From: a virus | Direction: 5' to 3' (one strand) | DNA: 64,000 bases | IMG/VR virus record: IMGVR_UViG_3300017917_001151 | Span: 18,852-82,851 of that record | Shown: positions 2,801 to 64,000 of the stretch, piece after piece | Layout: each line of letters begins with the position of its first letter | Numbering within the stretch: position 1 is the first letter of the stretch | Position numbers and translations under genes: made by a program | The notes under the pieces: generated by a model | Seen by the model: only the letters and a program-made list of their open reading frames with translations | What the model was told of the DNA's origin: nothing | The model's database searches: none

Positions 2801-3123
2801 ACTCTGAAACTTTCTCCGCAGCCGCAGCGATCGCGCTCGTTGGGATTTATAAATTCGAACCCTTCATTTAGACCGTTACGAACCCAGTCTACAGTAAGCC
2901 CGTGCATATAAACTAGAGATTTTTGATCAACTAAAACCACAAAATCTGGATGAGCAAAATTAGTAACTCCTGGTTCTGAAATGTACTCGTCTACATATTC
3001 AAGAGTATAGGCCAAACCACTGCACCCAGTGGTTTTTACACCTAGTCTTATGCCAACACCTTTACCTCGACGTTCAAGCAGTTGCTTGATCTTCAGTTGA
3101 GCTGTTTCGCTTACGGTAATCAT
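2797..3123 (-). CDS. iscA: Fe-S cluster assembly A-type carrier
   Basis: TTGCSGLAY and C-terminal CGCGESF signatures. Confidence 0.95.
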   Translation of the reverse strand: MITVSETAQLKIKQLLERRGKGVGIRLGVKTTGCSGLAYTLEYVDEYISEPGVTNFAHPDFVVLVDQKSLVYMHGLTVDWVRNGLNEGFEFINPNERDRCGCGESFRV

Positions 3124-3475
3124 CTATAGCAGCCTTAATGGCGTCCTCTGCAAGAATACTGCAATGTATCTTCACTGGCGGAAGGGCAAGTTCTTCAGCA
3201 ATTTCGCTATTTTTAATAGTACTCGCTTCGTCCAGCGTTTTTCCTTTAACCCACTCTGTAACGAGTGAACTAGAAGCGATTGCGGAACCACATCCGTATG
3301 TCTTGAAACGAGCATCTCTAATAATACCATCTTCAACCTTTATCTGTAATTTCATTACATCGCCGCAGGCAGGAGCTCCTACCATACCAGTACCAACACT
3401 GGTGTCGTTTTTGTCAAAGCTGCCTACGTTGCGGGGGTTTTCGTAATGATCTATAACTTTATCGGAATAAGCCAT
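3074..3475 (-). CDS. iscU: Fe-S cluster scaffold protein
   Basis: MAYSDKVIDHYENPRNVG, APACGDVM, YGCGSA and LPPVKIHC motifs. Confidence 0.97.
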   Translation of the reverse strand: MAYSDKVIDHYENPRNVGSFDKNDTSVGTGMVGAPACGDVMKLQIKVEDGIIRDARFKTYGCGSAIASSSLVTEWVKGKTLDEASTIKNSEIAEELALPPVKIHCSILAEDAIKAAIDDYRKRNSSTEDQATA

Positions 3476-4036
3476 TTAACCTCCTTGTAGTCTAATATCA
3501 ACAACTTCCCAATTAATGATACGCCAAATATTAGCAAGATATTTGGCCTTGTCCTGCTGATAGTCTAGGGCCCATGCGTGTTCCCAGGCATCTATCAATA
3601 GAGCAATTTTCATACCTTTGCGGTATTCGTGATTGTGAATAGTATGTAGTTTACTATCGTAGTCCATATAGATCCAATTAGAACCCTGTGCTGCCATGAA
3701 CTCTTTTTCAAAAGCTTCTTTGAATTTGTCAAAGCTGCCGTGTACATCATCTATCAAACTTTTACTGAGTCCCTCGGGTTTGTTAGCAGCTCTAGGTGGG
3801 GTCAAGTTTGCAAAGAAGATGTTGTGCAACATAGCACCACCGTAGTTAAAATCTGCATCACCCTCGCCTGCATTATAGCGATCAAAATACTTAGATGCTA
3901 GACCGTCGTAGTGATATTTGAGAGTAGCTTCACTCATAACAGGATCTAGCTCGTCTTTTTTGAATTTAAGACGATCTTGACGAATTTCGCGCTTATCAGC
4001 GGATTCAGTTAAACTTTTAATAAAATGTAGGGCCAT
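3476..4036 (-). CDS. sod: Fe/Mn superoxide dismutase (divergent)
   Basis: YHY, LHNIFF and DAWEHA metal-ligand motifs. Confidence 0.85.
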   Translation of the reverse strand: MALHFIKSLTESADKREIRQDRLKFKKDELDPVMSEATLKYHYDGLASKYFDRYNAGEGDADFNYGGAMLHNIFFANLTPPRAANKPEGLSKSLIDDVHGSFDKFKEAFEKEFMAAQGSNWIYMDYDSKLHTIHNHEYRKGMKIALLIDAWEHAWALDYQQDKAKYLANIWRIINWEVVDIRLQGG

Positions 4037-4079
4037 AACAATATTTACCGCTAAATAAAAGTCCTAAGGAGGATATTCC

Positions 4080-60250: not shown

Positions 60251-60279
60251 ATTATATATCCGTTTTGTCTGTGTGTCAA
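60251..60279 (-). promoter_or_regulatory. Consensus sigma70 promoter for the hypothetical-infA-RF operon
   Basis: TTGACA-N17-TATAAT; predicted +1 falls on ATG 60244. Confidence 0.88.
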
Positions 60280-60434: not shown

Positions 60435-60872
60435 TTATCTGTCGAACATTGTAAGACCGTTGAGGTGGTCTAGTTCGTGTTGGAAACATCTTGCGGCCCA
60501 ACCATCTAACCACTCTAGGGTTTCTTTGCCCTGTGCGGAATAGTAGCGGACTAAGATTTTCTTTGGCCTGTTTATTTCGCAGAACTGTCCCGAGAAGCTT
60601 AGACAACCTTCTGTGAGGTTTACCTGCTCTTCGCTGGATTCTACAATCTCAGGATTGAAGCAGTGATAAAACTTGTTGTCTACAAACATTACAAACAATC
60701 TAACATTTAAACCGCATTGATTAGCGGCCAAGCCCATGCCGCGTTCTTTCTGCATAGTGCGGATCATTTGATGTGCTAGTTCTAGATTCTTTTTAGGACG
60801 TTCAAAGGTTACTGGCGCACAGACGTCTTTTAATACTGAGCTATCTAGTTTTAAATTAGTAAACTTCAACAT
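60435..60872 (-). CDS. def: Peptide deformylase
   Basis: GMGLAANQ, EGCLS and QHELDHL motifs. Confidence 0.95.
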   Translation of the reverse strand: MLKFTNLKLDSSVLKDVCAPVTFERPKKNLELAHQMIRTMQKERGMGLAANQCGLNVRLFVMFVDNKFYHCFNPEIVESSEEQVNLTEGCLSFSGQFCEINRPKKILVRYYSAQGKETLEWLDGWAARCFQHELDHLNGLTMFDR

Positions 60873-61557: not shown

Positions 61558-61631
61558 TGGTTGCGGGAGGCGGAATCGAACCACCATCTGAAGCTTATGA
61601 GACTTCTGAATTACCGTTACTCTATCCCGCG
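61558..61631 (-). tRNA. tRNA-Met(CAT), initiator-like
   Basis: C1:A72 mismatch; A11-U24; CTCATAA loop; CCA. Confidence 0.88.
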
Positions 61632-61638
61632 ATAGATA

Positions 61639-62211
61639 TTACAGTAGCTTCTCTGCGGTCAGAGTTGCTACTGTGTCTTCACTGAGAGGAATCTCAGTTT
61701 TGACATTGAACTCAAGGATTTCGTCGTTGAGTTTTTGTTTTTGCTTCTTAAGGTTAAGAACTTCGTTCTTGGCCTGTTCGATCTGCTCTTTGCTGAGCAC
61801 ACTGGTGCTCACTGTGTCGTTGTATCCGTATAGGCTACGACGACCTTCGCCTTTGTCGTTGCGGATCTTATCCAGCTTACCTTTGATGACTTCTAGTTCA
61901 GTCATTACCTGTGCGCTGGCCAACTGCTCTAGTTGTACGATACGCTTATCGATAAAAGCTGCCTTGGCCAGGCTAGTGCTGATACCGCTGGCTGCATTTG
62001 CTGTACCTATCAGGGCACGGATATTGTAGAGAGCCATGGTCAGGCGCTGACGACGACCATCGGCTTCGACGAGATCGTTATTGGCCTTGGCAATAACATC
62101 TTCAACTGTTTGGAACTCGTTGATCTCGACATTGAGATCTACTTTGATGCTTTTGATTACATCTTGGATGCTGTTCTGTAGTGCGTTTGCTTTTCTTAGT
62201 GTGATGTTCAT
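61639..62211 (-). CDS. Helical coiled-coil protein (190 aa)
   Basis: MNITLRKANALQ start after AGAGAG; heptad-rich; C-terminal L..N..TEI motif. Confidence 0.8.
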   Translation of the reverse strand: MNITLRKANALQNSIQDVIKSIKVDLNVEINEFQTVEDVIAKANNDLVEADGRRQRLTMALYNIRALIGTANAASGISTSLAKAAFIDKRIVQLEQLASAQVMTELEVIKGKLDKIRNDKGEGRRSLYGYNDTVSTSVLSKEQIEQAKNEVLNLKKQKQKLNDEILEFNVKTEIPLSEDTVATLTAEKLL

Positions 62212-62231
62212 TTGTGTCTCTCTTTTAAAAT

Positions 62232-62477
62232 AACGGTTTGGTAAAAGGTCAAGTAATAGACCGGACAATTGACAAGACCTATTGTACGACGTCGTCGGTC
62301 TAAGCAATGTGCAATAGACAGGCTACAGAGGCCTGAATATTTCCGATCGGCAATTGACAGGTATATAAGAATCGGTTCACTCAAGCACGGACAGTTTTCA
62401 AGACTGTTTGCCAGGATTAAGTCATTGGCATGAAGCCAATGTTGTCTACCCTCATCTACCTTTTACCTCGCCGGTTG
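62232..62477 (-). ncRNA. Structured, repeat-bearing leader RNA of the coiled-coil gene
   Basis: 10-bp closing helix GGUAAAAGGU/ACCUUUUACC; several internal hairpins; four GUCWAUU repeats. Confidence 0.65.
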
Positions 62478-62501
62478 TGCTATTGCTAACACAACAAAAC
62501 A

Positions 62502-62530
62502 ATTATACGATAAAAAAAGGTGTTTGTCAA
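62502..62530 (-). promoter_or_regulatory. Consensus sigma70 promoter
   Basis: TTGACA(62530-62525)-N17-TATAAT(62507-62502). Confidence 0.88.
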
Positions 62531-62538
62531 CACCTTTT
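62512..62538 (-). terminator. Intrinsic terminator of the tRNA transcript, overlapping the -35 box
   Basis: AAAAGGTGTT-GACA-AACACCTTTTTTT on the minus strand. Confidence 0.75.
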
Positions 62539-62546
62539 GGTAAACC

Positions 62547-62621
62547 TGGTGCTGGTTGTCGGATTTGAACTGACGACCTACTGCTTACAAGGCAGTTGCT
62601 CTACCACTGAGCTAAACCAGC
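62547..62621 (-). tRNA. tRNA-Thr(TGT)
   Basis: ACTGC-CTTGTAA-GCAGT; CCA. Confidence 0.93.
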
Positions 62622-63596: not shown

Positions 63597-64000
63597 CCTA
63601 AGGTTGAGATTACACCTTAAGCTAATAGTGCTTCTAGCATTATAGTCAGCCTTGCGAGCCAACCTTCTCTAGACATCCACTAAGACCCTTGCGGTATCCT
63701 AGTCCACTATCAGCATCGCCGTTTTTAAAGACAGGCAGTAGTCTTGTCGCCATATGCTATTCTACGCTTTCTTTTCCGTTGAGCTTGCGACCCATTAAGC
63801 CTTGCGGGCTACGAAACTTCCTGCATAAACAGATTTCACCTTGCGAGCTACGTCTGACTGTATTACCTTTCGGCTACAGTATTAGATGCTTTTCACATAC
63901 GACCGAGGCAGTCTTTGCGTTTTTGTTCGATAGTTGGAGTTGAACCAACAGTCAAATGCTTAAAAGGCATTCGCATTACCATTATGCTATATCAACCTAC
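63597..64000 (-). ncRNA. Large structured ncRNA, GOLLD-like 3' domain (5' part outside window)
   Basis: Five GCAA and one GAAA tetraloop hairpins on the minus strand; terminal AAGGU-GUAAUCUCA-ACCUU hairpin; located in a tRNA cluster. Confidence 0.65.
63925..63996 (-). tRNA. tRNA-Lys(TTT) without encoded CCA, apparently embedded in the large ncRNA
   Basis: AATGC-CTTTTAA-GCATT; T arm GTTGG-TTCAACT-CCAAC; imperfect acceptor end. Confidence 0.75.

What the first reader, a model, noticed from the sequence alone, without database searches (positions are those of the whole stretch)
61639..62530. Self-contained unit: consensus promoter, roughly 280-nt multi-hairpin RNA with repeated GUCWAUU motifs, then a coiled-coil protein
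Seen: a perfect sigma70 promoter at 62502-62530, then a leader closed by a perfect 10-bp long-range helix (62458-62467 with 62240-62249). It encloses hairpins such as CATTGGC/GCCAATG (62423-62441), ACAGT/ACTGT, CAGGC/GCCTG and AGACC/GGTCT. Four copies of (U/G)GUCWAUU occur at 62254-62261, 62266-62274, 62312-62320 and 62351-62359. Such a long non-coding stretch is exceptional in this compact genome. Inference: an RNA scaffold with repeated protein-binding sites for the downstream helical protein, either an RNP, an autoregulatory leader or an RNA-antitoxin-like pair. I do not recognise it as a known RNA family.
Basis: partly seen in the sequence, partly recalled or inferred. Interest (0 to 1): 0.8.

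Follow-up and report, generated by a model that had tools for sequence, protein, structure and literature searches.

The report
New jumbo-phage RNA with partner protein
A folded RNA of about 260 bases that fits no described family is made from its own strong promoter and always lies beside the gene of one small helical protein in many giant bacteriophages, which points to an RNA-protein machine of unknown job.

Summary
Real, and not ordinary. The consensus promoter (62530-62502), the closing helix and three of the four named hairpins are there. 69 distinct copies from uncultured jumbo-phage contigs share one multi-helix fold: 97% of cells paired, 33 of 57 pairs with double changes, 0 of 500 shuffles as good. 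No Rfam family matches. The 'GUCWAUU repeats' are better read as invariant (U)UG triplets spaced 7 nt apart (2+4+2) in single-stranded tracts; one copy is a helix strand. The RNA is tied to the 190-aa helical protein. 156 of 156 RNA copies with room have the gene downstream, 66 of them with an rpoZ-like ORF in between. In another metagenome lineage (L327) the related RNA lies after the gene. In Caulobacter and Brevundimonas phages a similarly built RNA (closing helix, five UG heptads) also follows the distant homologue. So it is a separate RNA gene partnered with the protein rather than a leader, probably a ribonucleoprotein; its function is unknown and binding is not shown. Metatranscriptome contigs cover the RNA in 4 of 4 runs. 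This scan had already found the same pair on other DNA, and two follow-ups gave the same reading.

The parts
62515..62538 (-). terminator-like hairpin that ends the upstream tRNA unit; its loop holds the -35 hexamer
   Evidence: 10 pairs, loop 4, T-run
62502..62530 (-). sigma70-type promoter, -35 at 62530-62525, -10 at 62507-62502
   Evidence: 12 of 12. The -10 is kept in the relatives
62231..62495 (-). structured non-coding RNA. The start near 62495 is inferred from the -10 distance; the conserved part ends near 62231
   Evidence: The ends were not measured
62474..62495 (-). P0, 5' terminal hairpin (9 bp)
   Evidence: helix 1: 8 of 9 pairs with changes on both sides
62444..62473 (-). 5' strands of the closing helices: P1a (62473-62471), P1b (62466-62458) and P1c (62454-62444), with the invariant AGA bulge at 62457-62455
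   Evidence: helices 2-4; for coordinates
62234..62261 (-). 3' strands of P1c (62261-62250), P1b (62249-62241) and P1a (62236-62234)
62423..62441 (-). P2 hairpin
   Evidence: every distinct P2 segment folds into a hairpin. helix 5
62410..62412 (-). 5' strand of the 3-bp long-range helix (PLR)
   Evidence: GGC:GCC, UAC:GUA, UCC:GGA and GGC:GCU in different clades. The register is shifted by one in the window's clade (helix 6: 74.9% paired)
62391..62407 (-). P3 hairpin, 5-bp stem, 7-nt loop CUUGAAA
   Evidence: helices 7, 8
62331..62386 (-). P4 stem-loop: P4a 62386-62378 with 62339-62331; P4b 62375-62371 with 62347-62343; loop 62370-62348 holds two UG sites (G 62358, 62351)
   Evidence: helices 9, 10
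62303..62328 (-). tract with four invariant (U)UG sites 7 nt apart (G 62326, 62319, 62312, 62305). It includes the PLR 3' strand at 62323-62321
62275..62301 (-). P5, a variable hairpin, absent in 6 of 69 copies
62262..62275 (-). tract with two invariant UUG sites (G 62273, 62266)
61639..62211 (-). gene of the 190-aa helical partner protein
61558..61631 (-). tRNA-Met (CAU), 7 nt after the stop codon. It follows the unit in the relatives looked at

Best explanation
The stretch 62495 to about 62231 (- strand) is a gene for a stand-alone structured RNA of a new family. A strong promoter fires directly into a terminal hairpin (P0). A long three-part helix (P1a-c) then brings the two ends together and encloses four or five hairpins and a 3-bp long-range helix. 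On this scaffold, three single-stranded tracts display eight invariant (U)UG triplets at a fixed 7-nt spacing. The RNA works together with the neighbouring 190-aa helical-bundle protein. The most likely form is a ribonucleoprotein in which several copies of that protein, or another oligomeric factor, read the evenly spaced triplets. Shown: the fold, the strand, the family, the strict gene linkage in either gene order, and the RNA's presence in RNA libraries. Inferred: physical binding, the triplets as binding sites, and action in trans. The cellular job is unknown. The setting among tRNA, IF-1, deformylase and release-factor-like genes hints at translation take-over; the setting a few genes upstream of the capsid gene in one Brevundimonas phage (Kabachok) hints at virion assembly.
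For: Fold: 69 distinct copies, 63-90% identical to the window. 97.2% of 3861 cells are paired against 86.4% in shuffles. 33 of 57 pairs have changes on both sides, 0 of 500 shuffles reach any measure, and slid controls reach 28-41%. The variable hairpins P2, P3 and P5 form in nearly all of the distinct sequences. Strand: invariant G-U pairs, for example 48:297 and 147:204 in 69 of 69 copies, would be A-C on the other strand. Triplets: G conserved in at least 97% of copies at 62358/62351, 62326/62319/62312/62305 and 62273/62266, with variable spacers. Linkage: 156 of 156 RNA hits with room downstream are followed by the gene (87 within 80 nt, 66 with an rpoZ-like ORF between, 3 at 80-400 nt). 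79 of 79 gene copies with room have the RNA upstream (some contigs were fetched twice under different locus ids). The whole unit of RNA, gene and tRNA-Met is duplicated in L055. Either gene order: in L327 the RNA starts 2 nt after the stop of a homologue. It has the same 9-nt opening word, the same P0 and closing-helix layout and the same heptads. In 7 of 7 Dolichocephalovirinae phages examined, a 285-311-nt gap follows the homologue (hhalign probability 98.8 and 98.2). That gap holds a 5' hairpin, a 15-bp closing helix with compensatory changes, and five invariant UG sites 7 nt apart. Expression: contigs of 4 of 4 metatranscriptome runs from 4 studies cover the RNA. In X18 the summed depth is 150-2418 over 62199-62480 against 1-13 over the ORF. 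No run covers the promoter bin 62481-62527. Not coding. Not a known family.
Against: No experiment or computation here shows binding. The protein is not basic (pI 6.4; 27 K+R against 27 D+E), and its fold gives no RNA-binding relative. Sequence-level homology of the L327 and Dolichocephalovirinae RNAs to the window family is not significant (nhmmer E = 8 and 1.5). The case rests on shared layout and short motifs, and L327 is a single sequence. The loci were seeded either by the protein or by an RNA motif, so the sample is biased towards linked copies. Depths come from contigs and sum relatives, so they cannot rank genes strictly (tool note). In the window group nothing terminates transcription between the RNA and the gene, so here the RNA is also physically the 5' part of the mRNA.
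Confidence: 0.6

Rival explanations
1. Cis-acting leader: the RNA is the 5' untranslated region of the protein's mRNA, and the protein (or a metabolite or tRNA) binds it to control translation or mRNA stability, as in ribosomal-protein and phage T4 gene 32 autoregulation (recalled).
For: In the window group the RNA is always directly upstream on the same strand, with no terminator between. One metatranscriptome contig bridges the RNA's 3' part and the start of the ORF (X15 record 2).
Against: The gene order is reversed in L327 and in 7 of 7 Dolichocephalovirinae phages. In 66 of 156 copies another gene (rpoZ-like) lies between the RNA and the protein gene. Conservation ends 25 nt or more before the ribosome-binding site, and no conserved helix covers it. 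Some relatives have a second TTGACC-17-TATAAT promoter formed by the RNA's own 3' end, which would make the mRNA without the RNA (for example L044 and L051).
Confidence: 0.12
2. Protein-independent ornate RNA: like GOLLD and ROOL, the RNA acts by itself (possibly as a self-assembling particle, a decoy or a sponge for a host factor), and the neighbouring gene is only a syntenic companion.
For: It lies in the same tRNA island as a GOLLD RNA, both here and in L083. Many nucleotides in helices never vary (14 of 57 pairs), as expected for tertiary or intermolecular contacts. P3 has anticodon-arm geometry, with a 5-bp stem and a 7-nt loop.
Against: The linkage to one protein family persists down to about 25-30% protein identity and through a change of gene order. 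That is hard to explain by synteny alone.
Confidence: 0.12
3. RNA polymerase-directed element: a promoter-proximal RNA that, with the helical protein and (where present) the phage omega subunit, modifies the host polymerase. Examples would be processive antitermination through the structured tRNA array, as with lambda nut/N or HK022 put (recalled).
For: The layout promoter, RNA, then protein gene mirrors pL-nutL-N. An rpoZ-like gene (Pfam RNA_pol_Rpb6, E 1.6e-13) sits between the RNA and the protein gene in 66 of 156 copies.
Against: No intrinsic terminator is predicted on this strand between 62500 and 55628. The window's own record has no omega gene (the record is about 23% complete). In the other lineages the RNA is not at the start of the unit.
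Confidence: 0.08
4. Type III toxin-antitoxin-like pair or another defence/counter-defence pair, in which the repeated RNA neutralises the protein.
For: Repeated short motifs lie next to a small protein gene.
Against: There is no tandem repeat array. The repeats are 7-nt-spaced triplets inside a large fold. The protein has no toxin, nuclease or defence family (only a 14.8-bit PADLOC row). The pair is a core feature of a large lytic-phage-like lineage.
Confidence: 0.03
5. DNA-level element (iterons, origin or packaging site) rather than an RNA.
For: There are repeated short words and AT-rich surroundings.
Against: The pairs co-vary and include invariant G-U pairs that fit one strand only. The 7-nt period does not fit the DNA helix. 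The stretch is present in RNA libraries.
Confidence: 0.02

Closest known systems
GOLLD and ROOL RNAs (large ornate RNAs of phages and bacteria, often beside tRNA genes)
   Same: It is a large, highly structured non-coding RNA of unknown function in a phage tRNA island. A GOLLD RNA lies 1.1 kb upstream in this window and in L083.
   Different: It matches neither Rfam model. It is about 260 nt rather than 400-800 nt. It is strictly coupled to one protein gene, and it carries 7-nt-spaced UG triplets. What is known of GOLLD/ROOL assemblies I saw only as a search listing and the start of an abstract (10.1101/2024.12.08.627333).
HutP-binding hut leader and TRAP-binding trp leader of Bacillus (recalled from general knowledge)
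   Same: Evenly spaced triplets in single-stranded RNA are read by an oligomeric protein. HutP sites are triplets with 4-nt spacers, which is the same 7-nt period.
   Different: Those are cis-acting attenuators with a terminator, their triplets are UAG or GAG, and their proteins are not helical bundles. Here there is no terminator, the triplets are (U)UG, the RNA lies on either side of the gene, and the partner is an all-helical bundle.
phi29 packaging RNA (pRNA) (recalled)
   Same: It is a phage-encoded structured RNA with its own promoter that would act with phage proteins as part of a particle. In the Brevundimonas phage Kabachok the unit lies four genes upstream of the major capsid gene.
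   Different: No Rfam family, pRNA included if it is in release 15, matches at E up to 10. There is no evidence of a role in packaging. In this window the unit lies in a tRNA/translation-gene island under an early-type promoter.
PDB 3kdq, a protein of unknown function from Corynebacterium diphtheriae
   Same: It is the best structural match of the 190-aa protein: Z 11.1, rmsd 6.3, 142 residues aligned of 152; Foldseek E 0.032, TM 0.47/0.57.
   Different: Sequence identity is 14%. The Z score is below the level the tool calls safe for helical bundles (about 13). No function is attached, and no sequence family links the two.
lambda nutL-N and HK022 put (recalled)
   Same: A promoter is followed by an RNA element and then the gene of a small protein.
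   Different: There is no boxA/boxB-like hairpin set, and the RNA is about ten times larger. No terminators are predicted to be overcome downstream, and the gene order is not kept in other lineages.

Membership tests
GOLLD RNA (Rfam RF02032) | Match to the family's covariance model at or near its gathering score | tested here: not met
   the only GOLLD match is at 63601-63987; nothing at 62150-62560 at E up to 10
Any Rfam 15 family (6S, tmRNA, RNase P, SRP, pRNA, riboswitches, T-box, ROOL and the rest) | Match to a covariance model | tested here: not met
   the best rows are 16.7 bits (a microRNA model) at E 1.3; none at the RNA's place in 9 of 9 relatives at E up to 1. ARAGORN finds no tmRNA
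HutP/TRAP-type triplet-repeat RNA | Three or more identical triplets at a fixed short spacing in single-stranded RNA | tested here: met
   eight (U)UG sites with a 7-nt period in three tracts; five in the Dolichocephalovirinae RNA
HutP/TRAP-type triplet-repeat RNA | The triplets overlap a terminator/antiterminator switch upstream of the regulated gene | tested here: not met
   no terminator between the RNA and the gene; the RNA is downstream of the gene in other lineages
HutP/TRAP-type triplet-repeat RNA | A HutP- or TRAP-family protein as reader | tested here: not met
   no Pfam family for the partner; all-helical model. A host-encoded reader cannot be excluded
Cis-regulatory leader / riboswitch | Always 5' of the regulated gene, with an expression platform (terminator or a helix that hides the ribosome-binding site) | tested here: not met
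   (no platform; conservation ends before the ribosome-binding site). (downstream position)
Type III toxin-antitoxin (ToxIN-like) | A tandem array of RNA repeats followed by a toxin endoribonuclease gene | tested here: not met
   no tandem repeat; no toxin family
Ribonucleoprotein of RNA plus the 190-aa protein (proposed, not a described family) | Physical binding of the protein to the RNA | not testable with these tools
   Only gene linkage is shown and its persistence in distant lineages
Bacterial RNA polymerase omega (for the ORF inserted in relatives) | Match to Pfam RNA_pol_Rpb6 above the curated cut-off | tested here: met
   50.9 bits against a cut-off of 26, E 1.6e-13, for L059:2774-3004. 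23 distinct versions were aligned

The most novel reading that the evidence does not exclude
A new class of phage ribonucleoprotein. A rigid scaffold RNA of about 260 nt displays eight UG triplets at an exact 7-nt pitch and so loads a defined oligomer of a helical-bundle protein. The pair is conserved from uncultured freshwater jumbo phages to cultured Caulobacter and Brevundimonas phages. It would serve either the phage's take-over of translation and tRNA handling or virion assembly, as phi29's pRNA serves packaging.
Probability: 0.4. Interest if true: 0.85.

Novelty: categorically new. Interest (0 to 1): 0.8.

Why it matters
Very few large structured RNAs with dedicated protein partners are known in bacteria and phages (ribosome, RNase P, SRP, tmRNA, 6S, phi29 pRNA). 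Each of them revealed a basic mechanism. This RNA is widespread: the partner protein family has 919 clusters at 50% identity with E up to 0.001. It is strongly constrained and present in RNA libraries, and a similarly built unit occurs in phages of Caulobacter crescentus, a laboratory organism. The question 'what do ornate phage RNAs do?' therefore becomes directly testable with genetics and cryo-EM. The evenly spaced triplets give a precise binding hypothesis that can be mutated.

Tried and rejected
Complex prediction of the 190-aa protein with the rpoZ-like protein of L059 (alignments A5 and A4) gave no answer (score 0.00). It counts neither for nor against binding.

As a substitute I sent single distant homologues to the search for related loci. 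P0255 and P0204 found no relative in viral contigs (one search got no answer from the machine). P0269 in metagenome contigs gave one locus, L327.

The RNA-motif scan of genome contigs gave 120 stretches, of which only 1 (L218, a 7.5-kb contig binned with a Crocinitomicaceae MAG) holds the RNA. The rest are chance matches, so no host can be named. Of the 118 viral stretches read from the same motif scan, 39 also lack the RNA.

tblastn of the window protein, P0255, P0269, CcrColossus gp272 and the L327 protein against cultured phages found only Caulobacter and Brevundimonas phages.

Protein families: Pfam, PHROGs, NCBIfam and PADLOC gave nothing consistent for 80 members. The PDB sequence search gave only E 0.012 to 1zhc. 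The protein atlas gave unnamed viral clusters and a DUF6847 lead on 19% of one cluster.

nhmmer with the window-family profile does not reach significance on the L327 or Dolichocephalovirinae RNAs. I did not try a covariance model of the whole RNA, because a model of about 264 positions exceeds the tool's stated time limit.

A k-turn reading of the AGA bulge was considered and dropped. It is flanked by U-G and G-U pairs, not by G-A pairs.

An N-terminal extension of the protein (the 222-aa TTG ORF) was rejected. The crude non-coding-gap script was uninformative.

Literature: searches found no description of this RNA, and one search was badly aimed. PMC10690425 lists 8495 candidate structured RNAs from IMG/VR. 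I read only passages of its main text, which do not mention such a unit.
Full report
Setting. The window is the end of an 82,851-base IMG/VR virus record that CheckV rates about 23% complete. Related contigs reach 281,658 and 353,123 bases, so this is a jumbo phage. Runs labelled pond, freshwater and aquatic metagenome hold 0.23-0.69 of the stretch's words. On the - strand, the last 6 kb carry ten tRNA genes and a GOLLD RNA at 63601-63987 (179.6 bits). They also carry genes with Pfam matches to IF-1, peptide deformylase and the RF-1 domain.

What is at the coordinates. A 12-of-12 sigma70-type promoter lies at 62530-62502. Its -35 hexamer sits in the loop of a terminator-like hairpin at 62538-62515. 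Similar promoters occur at 60279 (12/12) and at 60445, 59321 and 57349 (11/12), so the promoter is one of a set. The 285-nt stretch folds at -80.1 kcal/mol, z -2.94. The 190-aa ORF runs from 62211 to 61639, and tRNA-Met follows 7 nt after its stop.

A family with one fold. The protein found 118 related stretches in viral contigs, of which 80 were kept, and 1798 proteins in the 90% clusters. The non-coding stretch is conserved at 67-88% identity, starting at the -10 box. With a profile of the first alignment I found the full RNA in 79 of 118 viral stretches that share an 18-letter motif, and in 1 of 120 genome stretches. That gave 69 distinct full-length copies, 63-90% identical to the window (alignment A2). 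The structure I propose has these parts:
- a 5' terminal hairpin, P0;
- a three-part closing helix, P1a-c, with an invariant AGA bulge;
- hairpins P2 and P3;
- a two-part stem-loop, P4;
- a 3-bp long-range helix that encloses P3 and P4;
- a variable hairpin, P5.

On A2, 97.2% of 3861 cells are paired (shuffles 86.4%). 33 of 57 pairs show changes on both sides, and no shuffle of 500 reaches any of the five measures. Structures slid by 1-3 columns pair at only 28-41%. P2, P3 and P5 align poorly, but P2 and P5 fold as hairpins in every distinct version that has them, and all but one P3 version do too. P5 is missing in 6 of 69 copies. The 3-bp helix reads GGC:GCC, UAC:GUA, UCC:GGA or GGC:GCU in different clades, with a one-base register shift in the window's clade. 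That shift lowers its score to 74.9%. Invariant G-U pairs fix the strand.

The repeats. KGTCWATT occurs 15 times in the window (13.7 expected), but four copies lie within 105 nt. Across the family the invariant part is (U)UG and the four bases between are free. The G is kept in at least 97% of copies at 62358 and 62351 (P4b loop), at 62326, 62319, 62312 and 62305 (after P4), and at 62273 and 62266 (after P5). The spacing is always 7 nt. The fourth 'repeat' (62255-62262) is the 3' strand of P1c.

Not coding, not known. The frame of the ORF is closed within 30 codons upstream in 72 of 78 distinct upstream regions. No Rfam 15 family matches at E up to 10 here, or at E up to 1 at the RNA's place in nine relatives. 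ARAGORN finds no tmRNA.

Linkage. Of 161 RNA hits, 156 have room downstream, and all 156 are followed by the gene. 87 are within 80 nt, 66 have an ORF between, and 3 are at 80-400 nt. Four lack room and one is truncated. 79 of 79 gene copies with room have the RNA upstream (some contigs are present twice). The inserted ORF is an RNA polymerase omega homologue (Pfam RNA_pol_Rpb6, 50.9 bits; 23 distinct versions). Its stop overlaps the start of the protein gene. The window's own record has none. In L055 the whole unit of RNA, gene and tRNA-Met is present twice.

The protein. No Pfam, PHROG, NCBIfam or PADLOC family fits it or 80 relatives. The family has 919 clusters at 50% identity with E up to 0.001, nearly all of 183-193 residues among the 150 listed. 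AlphaFold2 on 80 sequences gives a confident helical bundle closed by two short terminal strands (pLDDT 95.6). The best solved match is 3kdq, of unknown function (Z 11.1; Foldseek E 0.032). Among viral models it matches uncharacterised proteins of uncultured phages, CcrColossus, Vibrio phage Vp_R1, Erwinia phage pEa_SNUABM_47 and two giant viruses. The pI is 6.4.

Distant lineages. Cultured relatives are Caulobacter phages CcrColossus and CcrPW and seven Brevundimonas phages. hhalign gives full-length probabilities of 98.8 and 98.2. There the gene has only about 30-60 nt upstream, but a 285-311-nt unannotated gap downstream in 7 of 7 phages examined. These proteins are only about 30% identical between the three phage groups. 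Even so, the gaps share three features: a 5' hairpin, a 15-bp closing helix with compensatory changes (9 of its 15 pairs changed on both sides), and five invariant UG sites exactly 7 nt apart. G-U pairs place this RNA on the gene's strand. Rfam has no match in the Kabachok locus. A third lineage, L327, has a protein 65% identical to P0269, which is itself 36% identical to the window protein. In L327 the RNA starts 2 nt after the stop codon. It has the same nine-letter opening word, a P0 hairpin, the same closing-helix layout and the heptad words. Profile searches do not reach significance for either group, so homology of the RNAs is argued from layout and motifs, not shown.

Expression. All four metatranscriptome runs laid (four studies, contigs only) have contigs on the RNA with few differences: 62309-62462, 62346-62477 and 62325-66 ranges in X15-X17 (the last being 62325-62466), and high-depth pieces in X18. 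In X18 the summed depth is 150-2418 over 62199-62480, 6 in the next bin and 1-13 over the ORF. No run covers 62481-62527. This fits a start near 62495 and an end near 62230, and an RNA far more abundant than the mRNA. Contig depths sum relatives, however, and cannot rank genes strictly. One contig bridges into the ORF (X15 record 2).

Reading. The RNA has its own promoter, a terminal hairpin and paired ends. It has no expression platform, and it lies on either side of its partner gene. That makes a stand-alone RNA partnered with the protein the best reading (0.6), with the evenly spaced triplets as the likely reading frame for an oligomer. The rivals are a leader (0.12), a protein-independent ornate RNA or decoy (0.12), a polymerase-directed element (0.08), a toxin-antitoxin-like pair (0.03) and a DNA element (0.02).

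Comparison and novelty. It works most like a triplet-repeat RNA read by an oligomeric protein (HutP, TRAP; recalled), mounted on a scaffold. It shares its niche with GOLLD and ROOL. It is a member of none of these (see the membership table). I found no description in print. The IMG/VR catalogue of PMC10690425 may list it without a name in supplements I could not open. Earlier notes of this scan, read after my own analysis, report the same RNA-protein pair on other genomes, with the same reading.

Limits. Binding, RNA ends, strand-specific expression and function are untested. The sampling is seeded by the pair itself. One tool for fetching distant neighbourhoods was closed.

Noticed in passing
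window 63601-63987 (-), with tRNA-Lys at 63924-63997: GOLLD RNA (Rfam RF02032, 179.6 bits against a gathering score of 150). Its 5' end overlaps a tRNA-Lys gene, and the window and contig end there, so any upstream part is missing. A GOLLD RNA also lies in relative L083 (201.7 bits).
   Followed up: partly
L059:2774-3004 and 22 other distinct versions (alignment A4): A phage-encoded RNA polymerase omega homologue (Pfam RNA_pol_Rpb6, E 1.6e-13) lies between the RNA and the protein gene in 66 of 156 copies, and its stop overlaps the next start. None is in the window's own incomplete record.
   Followed up: partly
window 61558-61631 (-): The tRNA-Met that follows the unit has a C1-A72 mismatch at the top of the acceptor stem, as bacterial initiator tRNAs do, but it lacks the three G-C pairs of the initiator anticodon stem. 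These criteria are recalled. IF-1 and deformylase genes lie nearby.
   Followed up: no
L044:~770-800, L051, L057, L048 (alignment A1, columns 309-345): In some relatives the invariant TTGACC of the RNA's closing helix, 17 nt and a TATAAT form a second consensus promoter at the RNA's 3' end. It would transcribe the downstream genes without the RNA. The window has only TTTAAA at that place.
   Followed up: no
window 62391-62407 (-) and relatives: Hairpin P3 has anticodon-arm geometry: a 5-bp stem and a 7-nt loop that starts CU. The loop reads CUUGAAA, CUGAACA, CUGAAAA or CUCGAAA in different copies, and a UGAA-containing loop recurs in the Brevundimonas RNAs. The 'anticodon' is not constant, so a specific tRNA mimic is doubtful.
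   Followed up: partly
L109:2323-2641 (-): One copy of the RNA has an internal partial duplication: profile positions 1-197 are followed by 139-263.
   Followed up: no
L055:536-1526 and 3100-4058 (also L164): The whole unit of RNA, 190-aa gene and tRNA-Met is duplicated 2.5 kb apart. A 133-aa cysteine-rich ORF lies just before the second copy.
   Followed up: partly
window 60279-60251, 60445-60418, 59321-59293, 57349-57321 (-): Further perfect or near-perfect sigma70 consensus promoters lie in the same tRNA/translation-gene stretch. This suggests strong host-polymerase-dependent (early-type) transcription of the island.
   Followed up: no
L218 (JBDNIA010000359.1, 7552 nt): The only copy of the RNA among 120 genome contigs motif matches lies on a short contig binned with a Crocinitomicaceae MAG. 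This is probably phage DNA in the bin, and at best a weak host hint.
   Followed up: no
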